Source: a virus | Taxonomy: Duplodnaviria > Caudoviricetes | Length of the DNA: 64,000 bases | Virus record (IMG/VR): IMGVR_UViG_3300023283_000076 | Span: 64,001-128,000 of that record | Strand: one strand, 5' to 3' | Part shown: piece after piece, positions 6,800 through 53,116 of the stretch | How positions within the stretch are numbered: the stretch's first letter is position 1 | Layout of the letters: each line of letters opens with the position of its first letter | Notes under the pieces: model-generated | Seen by the model: only the letters and a program-made list of their open reading frames with translations | What the model was told of the DNA's origin: nothing | Database searches by the model: none | Program-made: the position numbers and the translations under genes

Positions 6800-7078
6800 A
6801 TGAGATTTCTAAAGAATAAGAAACGTACCATCGAAGTATGGTTTTGGCATGGTGCGGTAAAGTTAAATAGGGCGCTAGTGCTCGAAATTCTTGCCTCTGA
6901 ATTACATAAATTGGAGTTGATGTATGAAGGGCCAGAACGTGACCAGAATGTACTAGGTATTCGATATTATGGGACAGTAGATGATTTTATAAATGCTCTT
7001 CCTAATCGTCCTGTAATGAAACTAAGCGATCCGGATATCATTTATACAACTCAATTTAGAAATTTCTCTCAAAGGTGA
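6800..7078 (+). CDS. hypothetical protein
   Basis: downstream of TTGACA promoter. Confidence 0.6.
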   Translation: MRFLKNKKRTIEVWFWHGAVKLNRALVLEILASELHKLELMYEGPERDQNVLGIRYYGTVDDFINALPNRPVMKLSDPDIIYTTQFRNFSQR

Positions 7079-9402: not shown

Positions 9403-9703
9403 TTAATATGGATTTAGTTATGTATCGTAATAATATAGATCCTATACCTAAAAGAGAAGAGGAAGAAGACTATGATTAGACGTATTATTTTAACATTTTT
9501 ACCTTGGTGTATACTTGTAACTATTGCATGTGTTATCGCAATCCAGATTAATGCAAGTTTATCTATTGCGATATTATTAGGCGGAATTTCAAGTACAATT
9601 GGCGTAGTTAGTGGAGTTTTAATATATGATAACATTGAGAAATGATTAATATAGAAGAAACTCTTGACAAAACTGCTAAATAGTGTTAATATTAATTGAA
9701 TAT

Positions 9704-9789
9704 GGGTGAGATGGGAGAATCGGTACTCCTGCCGGGCTGTAACCCCGGTGCCTTAGTGCATGTTGGTTCGAATCCAACCTCACCCACCA
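9704..9789 (+). tRNA. tRNA-Tyr(GTA)
   Basis: CCGGG-CTGTAAC-CCCGG arm, long variable arm, CCA. Confidence 0.88.
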
Positions 9790-13287: not shown

Positions 13288-13701
13288 TTAGTGTTTGATC
13301 CATGCAAAGCCATTATGTGTAATACATATTACGATATGCTTGAACAACCGTAAAATTAAAACTCCTTCATCACAATCTTCAACAATAATTTCACTACTTG
13401 GTATTATAAGGAATTTTTCTTTGATTGTTTTCAATTGTACATTTTCCATAAAATCTGGTGTAAGAATCTTGATCATTTTCTTCAACGCTTTATCAGCATC
13501 TGGTCTTGGAAGAATTGTATCATATCCTGTTCCTACACATTCAGGACATTCCCATTCATCATAAGAGATATCTCCTATATCAGCATTGTCTATATATCCT
13601 AGACCCATACATTCAAGACACTTTTTAGAGTTCAATTTATTTTTTTCTTTATTGTATAGACTAGTGTCTTTTTTCATAAAACACTCCATTTGTAAATCCA
13701 T
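13288..13701 (-). CDS. protein with DnaJ-type Zn-finger motifs
   Basis: CLECMGLG and CPECVGTG (CxxCxGxG). Confidence 0.65.
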   Translation of the reverse strand: MDLQMECFMKKDTSLYNKEKNKLNSKKCLECMGLGYIDNADIGDISYDEWECPECVGTGYDTILPRPDADKALKKMIKILTPDFMENVQLKTIKEKFLIIPSSEIIVEDCDEGVLILRLFKHIVICITHNGFAWIKH

Positions 13702-14073
13702 TGCAAATGATTATCATTCTCTAAAAATTAATATTTAATTTACGAATACGAATCATTCGCATTAACTTGATTTCATATTTCACCCTTTAGTATAACAGAA
13801 AAAAAAATTAAATCAAGGGTTGACATTGTATGTATTATATGGTAAAGGTATTAAAATAGGAATTAAAAAAAGACTTGCATTCTTTTGGTGGATATGATAT
13901 ATTACACATTCGCATTCAAAATATTGGAGTTTAATACATGGAACATCGTTAATGGAGAAATATTCTGAAATGGTGTTTACCGAACCCAAGTAAAATAATT
14001 GTATATTGGTATTGACAACCGTATAATGCTGGTGTATACTGAGCACTCTCAACAATTAAACAGGAGTTAACAC

Positions 14074-20452: not shown

Positions 20453-21226
20453 ATGACGACATTAATCAAAAACCGAGAAATGTACGATACTTTCATTGAA
20501 TTGCTTCCAGAGTTGGAGCGTGATGAAGTTTATTTTCTTTCATTGTCAGCACGTAACAAATACCTAACCGAAAATGAACGTGAAGCCTATTCTCTTGGTA
20601 AAACTGAAATGTTTTCACGACACATTGCACATGATAAGGAAGGCATTGAATATGCTATCAAGAAAATGGAAGCCGAACTGGAAGTAAAGACTACTCGTGG
20701 TGGGCATAGAATTCCAGAGAAAGCATTGGTAGTATACTTTAATATTCATCCTTCTTCAATGATCAAAGCGTATACTTCATTCAAACAACAAATGAACTCG
20801 CATTACGATGAAATTATTAAATCATTGATGAAGGGAACTAATCCACATTGCCATCCATTCTTAGGAATGTGTACTAAGTTGATGAGTCATATACAAAAAT
20901 GCTCTTCAAGAAAGGAATGGGTGGATATAGATATTGATGCACCTGCTGAAGAAACCGCATTGCGATACTCTGCGGCTATAGCTAATGCTTTATTCATGCA
21001 TTCTATCAATAATGTGAAAATCAAGACTCAGGGTGGCATTCATCTTTTGGTGAATCGGAACGATCTTAACACAAAGCCAATGGACGTTCCGTTACATAAA
21101 CTTATTGAAAACATGCATAAAGAACTCAAAGAGTTAAATGGTGAATGCAAATTTAACGATAACGCTATGGTGCCGTTACCGGGAACTAATCAAGCTGGTA
21201 AATTGGTAGAACTCTTGACAATTTAG
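20453..21226 (+). CDS. protein with AEP (primase-polymerase)-like motifs
   Basis: VDIDID, TQGGIH, PLPGT. Confidence 0.5.
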   Translation: MTTLIKNREMYDTFIELLPELERDEVYFLSLSARNKYLTENEREAYSLGKTEMFSRHIAHDKEGIEYAIKKMEAELEVKTTRGGHRIPEKALVVYFNIHPSSMIKAYTSFKQQMNSHYDEIIKSLMKGTNPHCHPFLGMCTKLMSHIQKCSSRKEWVDIDIDAPAEETALRYSAAIANALFMHSINNVKIKTQGGIHLLVNRNDLNTKPMDVPLHKLIENMHKELKELNGECKFNDNAMVPLPGTNQAGKLVELLTI

Positions 21227-31962: not shown

Positions 31963-32301
31963 TTGCATTGTTTGATTGATCATGCTATTATATATCCACG
32001 TTCACTAATCGGAGAAACTTACATGTCTGTCGAAATTGTTAACGAACGTTTCATGGTTTGTGTTGATTGCGCTATGTTTATTGCCAACGATGATCTTAGT
32101 GGGCTCGATTACCATTTTCTCTCCGATGAATCTGAACAGCGTGAAATCGCTATCCGCAACGGTGTTCAATATCAAAACGATCAAGATAATCATATTGTTA
32201 TGGGAAACTCTGATGATGATATTGAATTTTCCAAAAGCCCTTGCAATTGTTGTGGCGATCATTTACATGGATATCGTTATCATGCAGTTTTACTTAAATA
32301 A
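31963..32301 (+). CDS. Cys-rich hypothetical protein (likely start MSVEIV near 32023)
   Basis: CVDC and CNCCG motifs; GGAG before internal Met. Confidence 0.65.
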   Translation: MHCLIDHAIIYPRSLIGETYMSVEIVNERFMVCVDCAMFIANDDLSGLDYHFLSDESEQREIAIRNGVQYQNDQDNHIVMGNSDDDIEFSKSPCNCCGDHLHGYRYHAVLLK

Positions 32302-32318
32302 GAAACATTCCTACATAT

Positions 32319-32459
32319 AAATGAAAATCATTTTCATTTGGCAATGAGAATCATTTTCAATATCAAAAATGATAGCCATTCTCATTTGACAATAAAAACC
32401 ATTCTCATTTGACAATAAAAACCATTCTCATTTGACAATAAAAACCATTCTCATTTGAC
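32319..32459. promoter_or_regulatory. array of six Fur-box-like sites, last four as 23-bp tandem repeat
   Basis: AAATGAAAAT-C-ATTTTCATTT palindrome, TGAGAAT-C-ATTTTCA, then CCATTCTCATTTGACAATAAAAA repeats. Confidence 0.7.
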
Positions 32460-32558
32460 CTTATCTCGATTCAACCCTAGATGGTATCATATAACACCTG
32501 TAAATACAAAGATTTTTTTTTATCCTATTTTGGTACCTTTATCATATGCTGATACCTT

Positions 32559-32701
32559 TGTCAATACCCTAAAGAAAATATAATCAAAATCTATCAATCC
32601 ATCAGAGTTCATGCACAAATCGGATTTACAATTATTTTCAAAAATCGGTTGACGGATTGAGCATGTTGCTGTATGATCGGACTCACATTCACTGATAAAG
32701 G
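32559..32701. repeat. repeated intergenic promoter module (copies near 35095-35237 and 35603-35744, partial near 27444-27520)
   Basis: TGTCAATACCCTAA...AAATCGGATTTACAATTATTTTCA.A.ATC.GTTGAC...ACATTCACTGATA. Confidence 0.85.
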
Positions 32702-32710
32702 TAAATTGTT

Positions 32711-33019
32711 ATGCTAAAGATTGAACAGGAAATGATTAACGCCATTCAAAACAAGCGCAATTGGAGGTTCGGTAATACTTCGGTCGAATACTTGCCCGAG
32801 ATTGTTACACCTATGCGGGCACGTATTGAAATGGCAAAAGTTTATCTTTACAGTAACTGTATTGCCACTTATTCTTATCATGATAATACAGCTACTATCG
32901 TTCCCAGCACGCTTGTAGAATGGCCTACTGTTACAACCTTTTCTCGCCTTCGTGCTCTTGGACTTGATCCTAAATCGGAACTTAAGAGAATTGCAAATAA
33001 CATACAAGATGCAGCATGA
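32711..33019 (+). CDS. conserved phage early protein
   Basis: MLKIEQEM...GNT.V...TTFSRLRAL; own promoter. Confidence 0.7.
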   Translation: MLKIEQEMINAIQNKRNWRFGNTSVEYLPEIVTPMRARIEMAKVYLYSNCIATYSYHDNTATIVPSTLVEWPTVTTFSRLRALGLDPKSELKRIANNIQDAA

Positions 33020-34999: not shown

Positions 35000-35245
35000 C
35001 CCCTAGCTTAACATCAAAAACTATTCAGGGACCATAGAACGGTCCCTGAATATTATCCTATCCTAATGCCTTTAACTCATCATCATCATCCATTTGTCAA
35101 TACCCTAAGCAAAATATAATCAAAACATATCAATCTATCCAAATCTATAGACAAATCGGATTTACAATTATTTTCAGAAATCGGTTGACGAATTGACCAT
35201 GTTGCTGTATGATCGTACTTACATTCACTGATAGGAGAAACACAA

Positions 35246-35515: not shown

Positions 35516-35752
35516 TAGGTTCAATCGTATCATCAAGAGGATGCGACTTGTTCGCATCCTTTTTTATCCTATCCTAATGCCTTTAACTCATCATCATTTA
35601 TTTGTCAATACCCTAAAGAAAATATAATCAAAACCTATCAATCAATAAGAATCTATAGACAAATCGGATTTACAATTATTTTCAGATATCAGTTGACAAT
35701 CCTGAAAATATCTGTATAATCCTTAATTACATTCACTGATAAGGGTAACACG

Positions 35753-36640
35753 ATGAACGGAAATCAAAAGATTCACAAGATTGTAGCGCAAGCTTTCATC
35801 GACCAGATCGAAGCAGGTATGGCGGATGGTAAATGGACCGCTCCATGGGCGAAGCTTGCCACAGACTTTCCGACCAATGCCGTGACAAAGAAGGCATACC
35901 GTGGTATCAATATCTTTTCATTGTGGGGCGCTGGATTCTCATCCCCGTACTGGGCTACCTTTAAGCAATGGAAGTCAGTCGATGCCACGATCAAGAAAGG
36001 ATCAAAAGGATCATTGATCGTTTTCTGGAAAATTATCGATTCCAAGAATCAATTCGATAGTGACGGCAAGCCAAAAAAGTTTCCCTTCCTACAGAAATCG
36101 AAAGTTTTCAATGCCGATCAAGTTGATGGCTGGACCGCTCCAACACTGGAAGATCGTCCTAAGCTTTCGACAAATGAAATCCATGCCGAATGCGATGCAA
36201 TGATCGCAGCGACGGGTGCTGAAATCCAGCATGGCGGAAATATGGCCTGTTATGTTCCAAGTCATGACCGTATACTTCTTCCTGAATTCAACGCCTTTCG
36301 GGATGCCGATTCATACTATCAGACCGCATTCCATGAACTGGCACATTGGACAGGTCATGCTTCACGACTGGACCGCAACCTTTCCACCCGCTTCGGAAGC
36401 AATGCATATGCATTGGAAGAACTGTTAGCAGAACTTACAGCAGCCATTGTGGGCGTCCGTATGGGCATCGATGCTACTACCCGCATGGACCATGCAAAGT
36501 ATGTAAAGAGTTGGCTTACGGCGCTTCGTGAACAGCCAGAGTGCCTCATGCATATCGCCAGCAAGGCGAGCAAGGTAGCGGATTACCTGATCGAGGGCGA
36601 AGCAGGTGAAACCAAACAAGATCAAGCGGAAGCCGCTTGA
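35753..36640 (+). CDS. ardC: ArdC-like antirestriction protein (ssDNA-binding plus zincin domain)
   Basis: W.APW, YRGIN, YWATFKQW, VFNADQV, FHELAHWTGH.SRL.R, YALEEL.AEL. Confidence 0.9.
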   Translation: MNGNQKIHKIVAQAFIDQIEAGMADGKWTAPWAKLATDFPTNAVTKKAYRGINIFSLWGAGFSSPYWATFKQWKSVDATIKKGSKGSLIVFWKIIDSKNQFDSDGKPKKFPFLQKSKVFNADQVDGWTAPTLEDRPKLSTNEIHAECDAMIAATGAEIQHGGNMACYVPSHDRILLPEFNAFRDADSYYQTAFHELAHWTGHASRLDRNLSTRFGSNAYALEELLAELTAAIVGVRMGIDATTRMDHAKYVKSWLTALREQPECLMHIASKASKVADYLIEGEAGETKQDQAEAA

Positions 36641-36739
36641 TCTATCATTGATAGACTAGACGAGGATGCGAATCATTCGCATCCTCTTTTTTATCCTACT
36701 CTAGAGCCTTTACCATATAACATATCGCTTGTCAATACC

Positions 36740-45683: not shown

Positions 45684-46775
45684 TTAGTTTCCTATTGTAT
45701 TTGATTCGTTTATTGTATTATGCGTGTTATTTACTTTAATAAAAGTTGTACGTTTAGGTAGTTCTTTTATTTTATTTGCTCCCACATATGTACAGCAGCT
45801 ACGTATACCACCCAATATATCTTTAATTACAGTTTCAGTTGGTCCAGTTAATGGTATTAAAGCAGTTCTACCCTCACTACTACGATAATCTTTTAACCCA
45901 GTTCCATATTTATCCTGTGCAGTTTTAGATGACATACCATAATATACTCCATAGGTTACTGTTTTTCCATTTTCTGAAACGGTAGTTTTTTTGCAATCAG
46001 CTTCATTAGTACCAGCAAAGAATGAGCCAGACATAATAATATCTGCACCGGCACCAAATGCTTTTGCAAAATCTCCAACGTGAACACACCCACCATCTGA
46101 TATAATATGTCCCCCCAAACCATGGGCAGCGTCAGAACATGCATGTATTGCTGAAAGCTGGGGATACCCAACTCCAGCTTTCAGACGAGTGCTACATACG
46201 GAGCCATTTCCCACGCCTATTTTAACAACATCTGCTCCTGCGAAAATCAATGCTTCAGTCATATCAGGAGTAACTACATTTCCAGCGGTTATGACGGCAT
46301 TCGGAAAATCATCACGTATGCGCTTAATATGATCAACAAACTTTTCAGAATACCCATTGGCAACATCAATCATTATATTGGGTACTTCAGCGCTTAATTC
46401 TTTTCGCAAAAATGCGTTAACATCGTGGAGGATATTATAGGAATCATTATCTATGCCTATAGGAAAAAACATATGATCTAAATAATCATTAATTTTATTT
46501 TCCATTGAACGCAATTTTTTTATCCATTTATCAGTATCATGAAATTTATGTATTGTATATAAACAATTATAATTTTGTAATACATCTGCAACTCCGAATG
46601 TACCACATGTACCCATATTAGAATTCATTATTGGAATAGCGGTTATAGTCTTATTACTATGTTTAAAAGTCAATGATCGTTTAAGTGATACATCCTTTCT
46701 AGATTCTAATGCACTTCTCTTGGGACGTATCAAGACATCTGAAAAATCCAGCTTTACATCTTCTTCTATTCTCAT
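45684..46775 (-). CDS. guaC: GMP reductase
   Basis: MRIEEDVKLDFSDVLIRPKRS, IDVANGYS, GNVVT, GVGNGSVCSTR, GVGYPQLSA, SDGG, YGMSS, YRSSEG. Confidence 0.93.
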   Translation of the reverse strand: MRIEEDVKLDFSDVLIRPKRSALESRKDVSLKRSLTFKHSNKTITAIPIMNSNMGTCGTFGVADVLQNYNCLYTIHKFHDTDKWIKKLRSMENKINDYLDHMFFPIGIDNDSYNILHDVNAFLRKELSAEVPNIMIDVANGYSEKFVDHIKRIRDDFPNAVITAGNVVTPDMTEALIFAGADVVKIGVGNGSVCSTRLKAGVGYPQLSAIHACSDAAHGLGGHIISDGGCVHVGDFAKAFGAGADIIMSGSFFAGTNEADCKKTTVSENGKTVTYGVYYGMSSKTAQDKYGTGLKDYRSSEGRTALIPLTGPTETVIKDILGGIRSCCTYVGANKIKELPKRTTFIKVNNTHNTINESNTIGN

Positions 46776-48694: not shown

Positions 48695-50008
48695 TTGACA
48701 ACTCCCCTCGCTAAAGCAAGGGGATTCTTGTTTCACAGTCCTGTGCATTGCTCCATACAGGAGATTCAGTCTTATTTTGGACTCCACAAGCTAACTCCGT
48801 GTGCCCCACGGTTAAAATATTTTTAGCTGCATTAATATCTCGGTCATGTTCAACATGACACGATTCACAGCTAAATTTACGGACTGAAAGAGGCATTTTT
48901 GAATGCAAATGTCCACAACTGGAGCATGTTTTGGAACTAGGATACCATCGATTGACTTGATGGAATGTTCTGCCATACCATTCAGATTTATATTTCAGCA
49001 TGTCTACGAATGTTGACCATGCTGCATCTGAAATGGCTTTGCTCAATTTGCGGTTTTGAATCATGTTTTTAACAGCTAAGTCTTCTAATATGATCACTTG
49101 GTTCTCGTTGACAATATTAGAAGACAGTTTATGCAGAAAATCTTTCCTGCAATCAGCTATTTTAGCATGGACTCGTGCCACTTTCAGTTTTTGTTTCTTG
49201 AAGTTTTCACTTCCTTTTTGTTTCTTGCTTAAACGTCTTTGTTCAATTTTTAATTTCTGTGCATATTTTCTGGTGTTTCTCAGATTAGCAATCTTGTTTC
49301 CATTTGAATCAATCAGAAAATGTGTCAACCCAAGATCAATTCCAATCTTGTTTTGATTGACAGGTTTCAATTTCATGTCCTTCTCACCCTGAATAGAGAC
49401 GAAATATCTGTCAGCACTATCTTTTGAAACTGTGATTGAATTAATTTTTGACAAATCTAAGTCTCTTGACCATTTTATTTCTAATGGTTCTTTAGACTTT
49501 GCGATGTATAGCTTTCCGTCTTTAAAACGGAATCCACTATTGGTTAATCGAAATGATTGCTTTTTATGTCTATTTTTAAATTTTGGATATTTGGCTCTTC
49601 CCTTAAAGAAGTTAGAAAATGCAGTATCTAGATTGCGTAGTCCTTGTTGTAATGCCACATTACTTACATCATACAACCAGTCCAGTTCTTTTTTTAGCTC
49701 TGTGAGTTTTGCGCTCGTTTGATTATAATTAATTGAATTGTTATTTTGGTAATACTCATTGTGTCGGTATTCCAAAATATTGTTGTAGACAAATCGCACA
49801 CAGCCAAATGTCCGAGCGAGAAGTGTTTTCTGCTCATTGGTCGGATACACTCTATATTTGTATGCGATTTGTTGATTCAATTAATTGTTGCATATTTTTG
49901 TATTATACATCTATTTAGTAAATTTGACAAGTAGTAAATACTTTTGTCATATTATATTCTTTTAGAGTTTAACCCCTCCCTTAAGGAAGGGGTCTGTTTG
50001 TTTGGTTG
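48695..50008 (-). mobile_element. IS200/IS605-family element, TnpB only (IS1341-like)
   Basis: TTGAT target before left end CAAC; hairpins CCCCTTCC-TTAA-GGGAGGGG and CCCCTTGC-TTTA-GCGAGGGG; right end TCAA. Confidence 0.88.
48711..49880 (-). CDS. tnpB: TnpB RNA-guided endonuclease
   Basis: AYKYRVYP HTH, IGIDLGL, ILEDL, SKTCSSCG..CESC, DRDINAAKNI. Confidence 0.95.
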   Translation of the reverse strand: MNQQIAYKYRVYPTNEQKTLLARTFGCVRFVYNNILEYRHNEYYQNNNSINYNQTSAKLTELKKELDWLYDVSNVALQQGLRNLDTAFSNFFKGRAKYPKFKNRHKKQSFRLTNSGFRFKDGKLYIAKSKEPLEIKWSRDLDLSKINSITVSKDSADRYFVSIQGEKDMKLKPVNQNKIGIDLGLTHFLIDSNGNKIANLRNTRKYAQKLKIEQRRLSKKQKGSENFKKQKLKVARVHAKIADCRKDFLHKLSSNIVNENQVIILEDLAVKNMIQNRKLSKAISDAAWSTFVDMLKYKSEWYGRTFHQVNRWYPSSKTCSSCGHLHSKMPLSVRKFSCESCHVEHDRDINAAKNILTVGHTELACGVQNKTESPVWSNAQDCETRIPLL

Positions 50009-52057: not shown

Positions 52058-53116
52058 ATGGTTAGAAAAAAATTATTATTATTTACCGACGCGTATGAAC
52101 CACAAGTTAATGGCGTTGTTACTACATTAAAGCAAACTAAAAAGCATTTGGAATGTATGGACTATGATGTTACGATAATATCACCAAATGACTTTAAATT
52201 TACTGTACCTCTACCATTTTATAATCAAATACGCTTAGCGTTTCCATCGAAAAGGAAAATATCAAAAATTGTAAAAAGTATAAACCCTGATTATATACAT
52301 ATAGCAACCGAAGGACCTATAGGATATCAAGCTTCTAGAGTTTGTCAAAAAAATAGTTTCTCTTACACAACATCATATCATACGAATTTCCCAGAGTATA
52401 TAAATCAAAAATTTTCGTTTATCTCAGAGAAAATAATAAACAAATATCTTAGAATTATACACTATAATGCCAACTGCGTATTAGTGACTACAAACTCCAT
52501 GAAGAAGAAACTACATGATAATGATATAAGCCATATTATAAGTGTATGGGGTAGAGGAGTTGATACATCTTCTTTTAAGTTCTCAAATAAGATAAAAGAT
52601 AATAATAAAATAAGACTTCTGTATGTGGGAAGGGTATCTGACGAAAAGAATATAGAAAGTTTTTTAGATATTAATCAGAAATTTTTTGTTCCTAAACTGG
52701 AAAAGATTGTTGTAGGTGATGGACCGGCACTTAAAAAATTAAAAGAAAAATATGCTGATGATCAGTCGATACGATTTGTGGGATGTAAAAAAGATAGAGA
52801 GCTAGAAAAAGAATACCAAAACGCTGATATATTTGTATTTCCATCTAAGACCGATACGTTTGGTATTGTCATGTTAGAGTCTATGGCCTGTGGTACTCCT
52901 GTAGCTGGCTATAGAGTCATGGGACCGAAGGATATTATAATACCCGGAATAAATGGTCATATTGATGATGATCTAACTATCGCAGTTTTAAAATGTGTAG
53001 ATATAGATAGGGGGACATGCTCTAATTCAATTTCATTTTTAACATGGGATGAAATAACAAAAAATTTTAAAAATATAATAGAGCATGTTACTGAAAATAA
53101 ATATGACTTATCGTAA
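52058..53116 (+). CDS. GT4 glycosyltransferase, Agt-like (diacylglycerol glycosyltransferase)
   Basis: TDAYEPQVNGVV, IHIATEGP, YHTNFPEY, WGRGVD, YVGRV..EKN, FPSKTDTFG.V.LESMACG. Confidence 0.85.
   Translation: MVRKKLLLFTDAYEPQVNGVVTTLKQTKKHLECMDYDVTIISPNDFKFTVPLPFYNQIRLAFPSKRKISKIVKSINPDYIHIATEGPIGYQASRVCQKNSFSYTTSYHTNFPEYINQKFSFISEKIINKYLRIIHYNANCVLVTTNSMKKKLHDNDISHIISVWGRGVDTSSFKFSNKIKDNNKIRLLYVGRVSDEKNIESFLDINQKFFVPKLEKIVVGDGPALKKLKEKYADDQSIRFVGCKKDRELEKEYQNADIFVFPSKTDTFGIVMLESMACGTPVAGYRVMGPKDIIIPGINGHIDDDLTIAVLKCVDIDRGTCSNSISFLTWDEITKNFKNIIEHVTENKYDLS

What the first reader, a model, noticed from the sequence alone, without database searches (positions are those of the whole stretch)
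32319..32459. Array of six Fur-box-like sites at about 23-bp spacing: possible DNA sponge for host Fur
Seen: centres at 32329, 32352, 32377, 32400, 32423 and 32446. The first is a perfect 10-1-10 palindrome, the second is TGAGAAT-C-ATTTTCA, and the last four share ATTCTCATTT half-sites in a tandem repeat. Known: Fur binds the 7-1-7 TGATAATnATTATCA motif. The array does not overlap the next real promoter (about 200 bp away), although each repeat carries a TTGACA without a -10. Inference: as phage DNA replicates the array titrates Fur and derepresses host iron uptake, or it makes local early transcription iron-responsive.
Basis: partly seen in the sequence, partly recalled or inferred. Interest (0 to 1): 0.75.

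Follow-up and report, generated by a model that had tools for sequence, protein, structure and literature searches.

The report
Tandem Fur-box array in jumbo phage
An uncultured T4-like giant phage carries, just after a small early gene, six closely packed DNA sites that look like binding sites for the bacterial iron sensor Fur. They belong to a set of about 20 such sites confined to its early region, so the phage probably reads or soaks up its host's iron regulator, but nobody has shown binding.

Summary
Six Fur-box-like sites have centres at 32329, 32352, 32377, 32400, 32423 and 32446. The last four lie in a perfect 23-bp tandem repeat. The array sits between the stop codon of a 92-aa Cys-rich gene and a degenerate terminator, about 190 bp from the next promoter.

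On a weight matrix I built from ten E. coli Fur-regulated promoters, the six units score 20.3, 18.6, 16.8 and 16.4 (three times) bits. That is inside the range of the real operators.

The array is not alone. The 270-kb phage record has 20 sites of 14 bits or more at 7 loci, against 2.1 expected. All lie outside credible genes and all lie in the first 97 kb, the early arms with host-type promoters. The record encodes no Fur homologue. T4, with similar base composition, has none of these sites. T5 (in its injection stop signal), phi92 and rV5 have clusters.

Close relatives carry 2, 3, 4 or 6 units, so the array expands and contracts by slippage.

Best reading: host-Fur binding sites (about 0.45). 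The three perfect units have a damaged left half and may be weak or neutral copies. The sponge idea is quantitatively plausible but untested. This scan has already noted Fur-box arrays in other phages.

The parts
32023..32301 (+). 92-aa Cys-rich small early gene (P0003; CxxC ... CxCC ... H). The array begins right after its stop codon. Function unknown.
   Evidence: Translation. PHROG 8253/3034, function unknown; no Pfam family. A paralogue at 84% identity and a relative at 75% are always followed by an array. The structure model has low confidence.
32297..32315 (.). Unit 0: a degenerate relic of the repeat (AATAAGAAACATTCCTACA) that contains the TAA stop codon. In the paralogue and in relatives, the first and best palindrome sits at this position and overlaps a TGA stop codon.
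   Evidence: Repeat family D1; comparison of loci.
32320..32338 (.). Unit A: AATGAAAATCATTTTCATT, the core of the perfect 10-1-10 palindrome at 32319-32339. It is the best Fur-box-like site of the array (20.3 bits; 2 mismatches to AATGATAATCATTATCATT).
32343..32361 (.). Unit B: AATGAGAATCATTTTCAAT (18.6 bits). It has weaker overlapping sites shifted by 6 bp, as in natural Fur operators. The identical unit is the first box of the array in relative L017.
32368..32386 (.). Unit C: AATGATAGCCATTCTCATT (16.8 bits). It marks the transition into the perfect repeat.
32391..32455 (.). Units D, E and F: three identical AATAAAAACCATTCTCATT cores (16.4 bits each) at 32391, 32414 and 32437. The right half-site is good and the left half-site is degenerate. 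Each is followed by TTGACA (TTGACC after unit F).
32376..32459 (.). Perfect 23-bp tandem repeat (3.7 copies), the slippage-prone part of the array. Copy number differs among relatives.
   Evidence: TRF. Relatives carry 2, 3, 4 or 6 units.
32462..32484 (.). A 23-bp segment that is absent from an otherwise identical variant contig (L010), so it is dispensable.
32485..32523 (+). Degenerate terminator region (weak stem plus T9 run). The relative L017 has a clear GC hairpin plus T-run at this position. The array therefore lies in the transcribed 3' trailer of the 92-aa gene.
   Evidence: Sequence comparison. The terminator hairpins of the same module elsewhere are shown.
32515..32704 (+). Repeated intergenic module (several copies in the genome) carrying the next promoter, TTGACG-N17-TATGAT (32649-32677), and the shared leader and SD of the next gene.
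32711..33019 (+). Downstream 102-aa early gene (P0002; phrog_554, Pfam Kyano_Gp96).
13700..13718 (.). Another Fur-box-like site of the same family inside this window (ATTGCAAATGATTATCATT, 17.7 bits). It lies in the leader of a minus-strand gene within a divergent promoter region. Its paralogue is at genome 20889.

Best explanation
The array is a tandemly amplified block of Fur-box-type operator sites. It belongs to a family of about 20 such sites at 7 non-coding loci, all in the host-RNA-polymerase-transcribed early arms of a T4-like jumbo phage.

The most likely ligand is the host's iron-loaded Fur dimer, because the phage record has no Fur gene.

At this locus the sites overlap no promoter. 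They lie in the transcribed trailer between a stop codon and a weak terminator. Bound Fur would therefore act in one of two ways. It could be a roadblock or insulator between two early transcription units. Or the array could simply be a high-density landing pad that, once the phage DNA is replicated, removes Fur from host operators (titration).

Units A-C are probably the strong sites. Units D-F are recent slippage copies with one good half-site. They would bind weakly or only cooperatively.

Shown: the motif, its statistics, its genomic distribution, the copy-number variation, and the absence of a phage Fur gene. Inferred: that Fur binds, and what follows from binding.
For: 1. Match to real operators. 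A matrix from 15 sites in 10 E. coli K-12 Fur-regulated promoters gives the six units 20.3, 18.6, 16.8 and 16.4 (x3) bits under the phage's background. The training sites score 8.5-19.3.

2. Genome-wide enrichment. There are 20 sites of >=14 bits against 2.1 +/- 1.2 in second-order Markov genomes (maximum 4). Of 1000 column-permuted palindromic matrices, none reaches 20 sites and 6 reach 7 loci.

3. Location. No site lies inside a credible gene. Fifteen touch no ATG-ORF of >=60 aa, although such ORFs cover 82.5% of the genome; the other five touch only gene ends or two short doubtful ORFs in long gene-free stretches. All are in the first 97 kb of the 270-kb record.

4. Operator-like positions at other loci. 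At 45.9 kb and 52.3 kb the boxes flank a TTGACA-N17-TACGAT promoter. At 855 a box abuts a -35. At 20889 and 77700 the boxes sit between promoter and start codon.

5. Retention after duplication. Paralogous loci in the two diverged arms of the inverted duplication keep the motif while the box sequences and box numbers change.

6. No phage Fur gene. The record has no PF01475 match, while the control genomes do.

7. Other phages. The pattern AATGANAATSATTNTCATT with <=2 mismatches gives 20 hits here, 8 in T5, 9 in phi92, 4 in SSBI34, 2 in rV5, and 0 in T4, T7 and Xoo-sp13. The reversed-pattern control gives 0 everywhere. All eight T5 hits lie in its two terminal repeats, and the cluster within 7-12 kb falls in the annotated injection stop signal. 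These unrelated coliphages share a host, not a known regulator.

8. Iron-related phage genes. The phage encodes an iron-dependent NrdB and a Bfd-like ferredoxin. This gives it a stake in host iron, although the link is circumstantial.

9. Published consensus. Literature supports the 19-bp consensus AATGATAATAATTATCATT and the 7-1-7 model. It also shows that predicted E. coli Fur sites form clusters of 1-14 sites each (PMC7536154, PMC2189734).
Against: - No binding data exist.
- The host is unknown. Only indirect hints point to a Gammaproteobacterium. The host-type promoters and SD sequences do argue, from general knowledge, against Bacteroidota.
- The array overlaps no promoter, so it is not a classical operator.
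- Units D-F deviate at G4 and T9 of the left half. Published EMSA work found T9 important in itself, and found the double change A14G/C16A, which includes G4's mirror position C16, to weaken binding (PMC7536154).
- Units D-F lack the overlapping 6-bp-shifted sites typical of natural Fur clusters.
- My matrix was seeded from the consensus and rests on only 15 sites, so it penalises these changes only mildly.
- Perfect identity of the units and copy numbers of 2-6 among near-identical relatives fit neutral slippage as well as selection.
- The seven loci reduce to about four independent ones once the inverted duplication is taken into account.
Confidence: 0.45

Rival explanations
1. The sites are operators or iterons for a phage-encoded dimeric DNA-binding protein, such as an early-gene repressor. 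Its AT-rich palindrome would merely resemble the Fur box.
For: - Head-to-tail repeats at 23 bp are typical of iteron-like arrays.
- The array is always linked to the same small Cys-rich gene.
- The sites are restricted to the phage early region, as expected for a phage regulon.
- Most phage genes here have no known function.
Against: - The match to E. coli operators is at the level of the whole matrix, not just AT-richness.
- A 24-nt stretch that differs at one base, AATGAGAATCATTATCATTTGCA(A/T)T, occurs in T5. Clusters also occur in phi92 and rV5. No regulator shared with these phages is known.
- Distant homologues of the 92-aa protein in SSBI34 and FBKp34 have no such sites within 2.5 kb.
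- The 92-aa family shows no DNA-binding signature.
- Five of the seven loci lack a copy of that gene.
Confidence: 0.22
2. Only the first one to three boxes are functional. The perfect 23-bp units are a neutral minisatellite, produced by replication slippage of a unit that happens to hold a half-site, and have no function of their own.
For: - The three to four units are 100% identical.
- Copy numbers of 2, 3, 4 and 6 occur in contigs whose flanks are nearly identical.
- Concerted evolution within arrays: all units of the paralogue share the A-to-G change.
- The amplified unit is the one with the poor left half-site.
- A 23-bp deletion right beside the array in variant L010 shows that the region is mutationally unstable.
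- The 52.3-kb cluster also gained exactly one box through a 30-bp insertion.
Against: - Every member of the family keeps at least two units.
- The amplified unit still scores 16.3-16.4 bits in most arrays, though its counterpart in the most distant relative, L017, scores only 12.5.
- Both diverged paralogous arms have kept an array rather than losing it.
- This rival is compatible with the best explanation for units A-C.
Confidence: 0.25
3. The array is the iteron block of a replication origin, as in T4 oriE, lambda ori or plasmid origins.
For: - Direct repeats with a period of roughly two helical turns.
- A T-rich stretch about 50 bp downstream.
- From memory: T4 oriE contains short iterons.
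Against: - The record has no iteron-type initiator (Rep_3, phage O).
- There are two arrays plus five further loci with the same motif, rather than one origin.
- No DnaA boxes were seen by eye, and the flank is not unusually AT-rich.
- The window shows no clear GC-skew turn at the array.
- Copy number varies freely among relatives.
Confidence: 0.05

Closest known systems
Multi-site Fur operators of enterobacterial iron genes (fepA-fes, fepB-entC, fhuF, ryhB, cirA; 19-bp Fur box, 7-1-7 model)
   Same: The same 19-bp AT-rich inverted repeat. Scores fall in the same range as the real operators. Sites cluster in non-coding DNA. In units A-B and at the other loci there are overlapping sites shifted by 6 bp (PMC2189734).
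   Different: Here the sites are on a virulent-type phage genome. At this locus they overlap no promoter and lie next to no iron gene. They are arranged as head-to-tail 23-bp repeats with a variable number of units.
Palindrome and repeat block of the phage T5 injection stop signal, and the clusters in phi92 and rV5
   Same: The same motif. One T5 box plus its overlapping neighbour differs at one base from the box at genome 45895 here. The clusters lie in gene-free DNA of virulent phages. phi92 also has two boxes 23 bp apart.
   Different: The phage lineages are unrelated and the host here is unknown. In T5 the boxes lie in the terminal repeat, where DNA entry pauses; here they lie within an early gene array. 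In no case has Fur binding been published, and no paper in the searched library holds both 'injection stop signal' and 'Fur'.
DNA titration loci: Fur titration assay (FURTA) plasmids, E. coli datA (titrates DnaA), P1 incA iterons (titrate RepA)
   Same: It would work like these: many copies of a binding site lower the free concentration of a regulator. FURTA shows that a Fur box on a multicopy replicon is enough to derepress Fur-controlled genes (from memory: Stojiljkovic 1994; in vivo selection of Fur-binding fragments is cited in PMC2189734).
   Different: No titration has been measured here. datA and incA titrate the replicon's own initiator, not a host metal sensor.
Iterons of plasmid and phage origins (lambda ori, R6K, P1; T4 oriE)
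   Same: Direct repeats of about 20 bp at roughly two-turn spacing, and variable numbers.
   Different: There is no initiator gene. The motif is palindromic and is shared with promoter-proximal sites elsewhere in the genome. There are two arrays.

Membership tests
Fur box / Fur operator | AT-rich inverted repeat matching the 19-bp consensus (GATAATGATAATCATTATC / AATGATAATCATTATCATT), or 7-1-7 TGATAATnATTATCA | tested here: met
   Units A-F have 2, 3, 3, 4, 4 and 4 mismatches out of 19. E. coli training operators have 2-7. Units A and B match TGAnAATnATTnTCA exactly.
Fur box / Fur operator | Weight-matrix score within the range of experimentally supported operators and above the genomic background | tested here: met
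   The units score 16.4-20.3 bits against 8.5-19.3 for the training sites. Sites of >=14 bits: 20 observed, 2.1 expected. Permuted matrices never reach 20 sites.
Fur box / Fur operator | Both half-sites intact, since Fur binds as a dimer and single heptamers do not bind | tested here: inconclusive
   Units A, B and C keep both half-sites. Units D-F have AATAAAAAC as the left half (G4->A, T6->A, T9->C). EMSA work found T9 important and found the double change A14G/C16A, which includes G4's mirror C16, to weaken binding (PMC7536154).
Fur box / Fur operator | Overlaps or adjoins the promoter of the regulated gene | tested here: not met
   There is no promoter in the array, and the next one is 190 bp downstream. 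This feature is met at other loci of the same genome.
Fur box / Fur operator | Bound by metal-loaded Fur in vitro or in vivo | not testable with these tools
   Needs EMSA, footprinting, FURTA or ChIP.
Fur box / Fur operator | The host encodes a Fur that recognises this box | not testable with these tools
   The host is unknown. The TnpB-based search was uninformative. The phage record has no Fur gene.
Origin iterons | Direct repeats of 17-23 bp at about two-turn spacing | tested here: met
   23-bp period, with 3.7 perfect units plus 3 diverged ones.
Origin iterons | A cognate initiator gene (Rep or O type) in the replicon, usually adjacent | tested here: not met
   PF01051 and PF04492 are absent. 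The adjacent 92-aa protein has no DNA-binding family match. The record is only 79% complete.
Origin iterons | A unique origin locus with an adjacent DNA-unwinding element | tested here: not met
   There are two arrays and five other loci with the motif. No exceptional AT-rich element was seen by eye in the sequence read.
Structured RNA or 3'UTR element | Significant fold or a known RNA family | tested here: not met
   The MFE z-score is -1.04. There is no Rfam match at E<=1.

The most novel reading that the evidence does not exclude
The array is an expandable Fur sponge. Together with about 14 other Fur boxes per genome, it titrates the host's Fur as the phage DNA replicates. This switches on the host's iron-uptake regulon to feed phage iron enzymes such as NrdB and to work with the phage Bfd-like ferredoxin. 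Slippage of the 23-bp unit (2 to 6 copies in co-occurring variants) tunes the dose. More broadly, Fur-box arrays in T5, phi92, rV5 and this salt-pan phage would mark a general, undescribed way in which virulent phages use a host metal sensor.
Probability: 0.13. Interest if true: 0.8.

Novelty: new variant of a known kind. Interest (0 to 1): 0.55.

Why it matters
Fur is the master iron regulator of most bacteria, and a Fur box on a multicopy replicon is known to derepress its regulon. A virulent phage that carries about 20 good Fur boxes, all in its early region, would either sense host iron before committing to its programme or reset host iron uptake as it replicates. I found neither described for lytic phages in the papers searched.

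The same motif clusters sit in the unexplained T5 injection stop signal and in phi92 and rV5. The question can therefore be tested at once in E. coli with standard assays. This uncultured phage shows that the phenomenon reaches beyond coliphages. Copy-number variation of the array among natural variants offers a built-in dose series.

Tried and rejected
- **Close relatives in the cultured-phage collection.** blastn of the locus found none.
- **Exact-unit search in IMG/VR.** It gave two single chance matches inside coding DNA.
- **The search for related loci.** Queries with the downstream protein and with the HerA-like ATPase found no relatives in IMG/VR.
- **Relatives and metagenome contigs in the genome search.** I could not scan whole related genomes.
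- **Host inference from the TnpB gene.** The best matches were about 41% identical, in Firmicutes, which is uninformative.
- **Sequencing runs.** No RNA holder is listed. I did not lay reads.
- **The 92-aa neighbour as array binder.** There is no Pfam family. The PHROG families have unknown function. Atlas look-alikes are unnamed phage proteins. The AlphaFold model has pLDDT 48, too poor to search. Distant homologues have no Fur-like sites nearby. The idea is not supported.
- **RNA element in the 3' trailer.** The fold is not better than shuffles (z = -1.04), and there is no Rfam match.
- **Coding or CRISPR readings.** A 23-bp period is not a multiple of three, and the units abut without spacers.
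- **Promoter array.** The TTGACA boxes have no -10 partner.
- **A second palindrome family.** I first took GAGGATGCGAATSATTCGCATCCTC for operators. The copies are intrinsic terminator hairpins followed by T-runs.
- **Supplement of PMC2189734.** The site lists are not held, so I built my own matrix from K-12 promoters.

Full report
**Setting.** The window is bases 64001-128000 of a 270,653-bp linear IMG/VR virus record, estimated 79% complete. It is AT-rich, at 30-40% GC, and the window carries 18 tRNA genes. It is packed with small plus-strand genes behind host-type TTGACA/TATAAT promoters. Notes from this scan describe the record as a T4-like jumbo phage from a salt pan with a large, diverged inverted duplication of its early region. 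My self-comparison confirms a roughly 5-kb inverted paralogue of the segment studied here, at 77-90% identity.

**The observation.**
- A perfect 10-1-10 palindrome lies at 32319-32339. Chance would give 0.15 of these per window, and two occur.
- TGAGAAT-C-ATTTTCA lies at 32345-32359.
- A perfect 23-bp tandem repeat, CCATTCTCATTTGACAATAAAAA, runs for 3.7 copies at 32376-32459.
- No promoter lies inside the array, and the next one (32649-32677) is 190 bp away.

Two points add to the description. First, the left part is made of older, diverged units of the same 23-bp repeat (family D1). The six sites are therefore one array: a relic unit 0 over the stop codon, then units A to F. Second, the array starts directly after the stop codon of a 92-aa Cys-rich gene. 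It ends about 25 bp before a degenerate terminator. In a relative (L017) the same position holds a clean GC hairpin with a T-run. The array is thus in the transcribed 3' trailer of that gene.

**Is it Fur-like by more than eye?** I took ten Fur-regulated promoter regions of E. coli K-12: fepA-fes, fepD-entS, fepB-entC, fhuA, ryhB, cirA, fiu, tonB, fhuF and fecI. From them I refined a symmetric 19-bp weight matrix on 15 sites. With the phage's own base composition as background, the training sites score 8.5-19.3 bits. The six units score 20.3, 18.6, 16.8, 16.4, 16.4 and 16.4.

The matrix was seeded from the published consensus and rests on few sites, so it is lenient. Units D-F read AATAAAAAC in the left half where the consensus reads AATGATAAT. 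They have lost G4 and T9. Published gel shifts with Aliivibrio Fur found T9 important, and found that the double change A14G/C16A, which includes G4's mirror position C16, weakens binding (PMC7536154). Units D-F also lack the overlapping 6-bp-shifted sites that accompany natural Fur operators. Units A-B and the other loci of this genome do have them (PMC2189734).

**The array is part of a genome-wide set.** The record has 20 sites of 14 bits or more, against 2.1 +/- 1.2 (maximum 4) in second-order Markov genomes. Of 1000 matrices with permuted columns, none reaches 20 sites and only 6 reach 7 loci.

The seven loci are at genome positions 855, 6982-7028, 20889, 45895-46055, 52299-52466, 77700 (window 13700) and 96320-96437 (this array). 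None lies inside a credible gene. Fifteen of the 20 sites touch no ATG-ORF of 60 aa or more, although such ORFs cover 82.5% of the genome. The other five touch only gene ends or two short, doubtful ORFs in long gene-free stretches. All are in the first 97 kb, and the remaining 173 kb has none.

At the other loci the boxes sit where operators sit:
- One abuts a -35 at position 855.
- Boxes lie between promoter and start codon at 20889 and 77700.
- Boxes lie on both sides of a TTGACA-N17-TACGAT promoter at 45.9 kb and 52.3 kb.

The loci pair up across the inverted duplication: 7.0 kb with 96.3 kb, 20.9 kb with 77.7 kb, and 45.9 kb with 52.3 kb. There are therefore about four independent origins. 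In each pair the motif has been kept while the box sequences and numbers changed. For example, the 52.3-kb arm gained exactly one box through a 30-bp insertion.

**Who binds?** The record has no Fur-family gene, while the same search rings in all 14 control genomes, 12 of them above the family's cut-off. It also has no Rep_3 or lambda-O type initiator.

The adjacent 92-aa protein belongs to a widespread phage family of unknown function. Its distant homologues in Salmonella phage SSBI34 and Klebsiella phage FBKp34 have no such sites within 2.5 kb. Its structure model was too poor to use.

A simple pattern search, AATGANAATSATTNTCATT with up to 2 mismatches, gave these counts:

| Genome | Hits |
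|---|---|
| This phage | 20 |
| T5 | 8 |
| phi92 | 9 |
| SSBI34 | 4 |
| rV5 | 2 |
| lambda | 1 |
| T4 | 0 |
| T7 | 0 |
| Xanthomonas jumbo phage Xoo-sp13 | 0 |
| Acinetobacter phage MD-2021a contig | 0 |

The reversed pattern gave 0 everywhere. T4 has, from general knowledge, about the same base composition as this phage, so the motif is not a by-product of AT-richness.

All eight T5 hits lie in the two terminal repeats. In the 7-12 kb stretch that I scored with the matrix, the cluster lies inside the annotated injection stop signal. One T5 box with its overlapping neighbour differs at one base from the one at genome 45895 here. T5, phi92 and rV5 are unrelated to each other but share a host whose Fur box is this motif. 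That favours a host protein over a phage one.

These checks confirm earlier notes of this scan on T5, phi92-like and rV5-like phages. The scan has therefore seen this phenomenon before on other DNA. In the paper library I found no paper that connects Fur boxes with lytic phage genomes or with the T5 signal.

**Dynamics.** Exact-protein look-ups recovered contigs of close relatives from salt-pan metagenomes. The array always begins at the stop codon of the 92-aa gene. Apart from the relic unit 0 in this window and in L010, its first unit is always the best palindrome. In the paralogue lineage the TGA stop is itself the TGA of the box.

| Copy | Number of units |
|---|---|
| L012, L013, L014, L016, L017 | 2 |
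| This genome's own paralogue | 3 |
| L011 | 4 |
| This window, and L010 | 6 |

Units within an array are identical to each other but differ between arrays, which indicates concerted evolution by slippage. One variant also lost exactly 23 bp beside the array.

**Interpretation.** The most economical reading is that these are binding sites for the host's Fur (confidence 0.45). For the promoter-proximal loci this would make a subset of early transcription iron-dependent.

For the array studied here, which touches no promoter, two actions are plausible. The first is a protein roadblock in front of a weak terminator, insulating two early units when iron is plentiful. The second is titration. A single Fur box on a multicopy plasmid is enough to derepress Fur-controlled reporters; this is the basis of the Fur titration assay, which I cite from memory. 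A replicating phage with some 20 boxes per genome would present thousands of sites, so some titration would be hard to avoid if Fur binds at all.

The phage encodes an iron-dependent ribonucleotide reductase small subunit and a Bfd-like ferredoxin. This gives a motive but no proof.

**Rivals.**
- A phage-encoded regulator with a look-alike motif (0.22).
- Neutral slippage copies attached to one to three real boxes (0.25). This is compatible with the main reading for units A-C.
- Origin iterons (0.05).
- An RNA-level role finds no support: the fold z-score is -1.04 and there is no Rfam family.

**Verdict.** The sponge mechanism is possible (about 0.13). It is a new variant of a known kind of element: Fur operators used on a virulent phage genome, here as a slippage-prone tandem array. 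The case is worth a simple bench test, most easily in the coliphages that carry the same clusters.

Noticed in passing
window 36664-36684; genome 2786 and 3879: GAGGATGCGAATSATTCGCATCCTC followed by a T-run. These are perfect-palindrome intrinsic terminators (apparently bidirectional) that belong to the repeated intergenic module. At first sight they look like a second operator family.
   Followed up: partly
window 32534-32544 and 32693-32703: An 11-nt perfect complement, TACCTTTATCA / TGATAAAGGTA, 148 nt apart. The second arm holds the SD of the next gene. Read-through transcripts could hide the ribosome site while promoter-proximal transcripts leave it free. The same module recurs at several early genes (window 35053-35243 and 35560-35755; genome 4188-4371 and 4714-4834).
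   Followed up: no
genome 45780-46110 and 52230-52570 (before the window): Two homologous mirror-image control regions flank the unique centre of the inverted duplication. Each has a TTGACA-N17-TACGAT promoter with one Fur-like box upstream and 3 to 5 downstream, and each faces the central spacer. The 52.3-kb copy has a 30-bp insertion that adds one box.
   Followed up: partly
window 13700-13930 and genome 20780-20950: Paralogous leader regions share a conserved block (gggtgaaat ... AATGCGAATnAnTCGTATT-cgtaaattaaat) followed by a Fur-like box just before the start codon. The box sequences differ between the two copies, but both stay Fur-like (15.5 and 17.7 bits).
   Followed up: partly
window 32462-32484 versus L010: A variant contig from the same sample series lacks exactly 23 bp immediately after the array. 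This equals the repeat period, although the deleted sequence is not a recognisable unit.
   Followed up: no
phi92 (NC_023693) 136991-137102 and both terminal repeats; T5 (NC_005859) 9552-9715; lambda 48450: Clusters of the same Fur-box-like motif in unrelated coliphages. In phi92 there are four boxes within 110 bp, two of them 23 bp apart. T4 and T7 have none. A single good site lies about 50 bp from the right end of lambda.
   Followed up: partly
genome 139377-139511 and 152029-152907: The phage encodes a Bfd-like [2Fe-2S] ferredoxin (PF04324, 31 bits) and a class I ribonucleotide reductase small subunit (PF00268, 181 bits). These are iron-related functions that could link to the Fur boxes.
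   Followed up: partly
window 48711-49880 (-): An intact IS605-family TnpB/OrfB gene (HTH_OrfB, OrfB_IS605 and Cas12f1-like TNB domains) inside the phage. The best bacterial matches are only about 41% identical, so it gives no host clue.
   Followed up: partly
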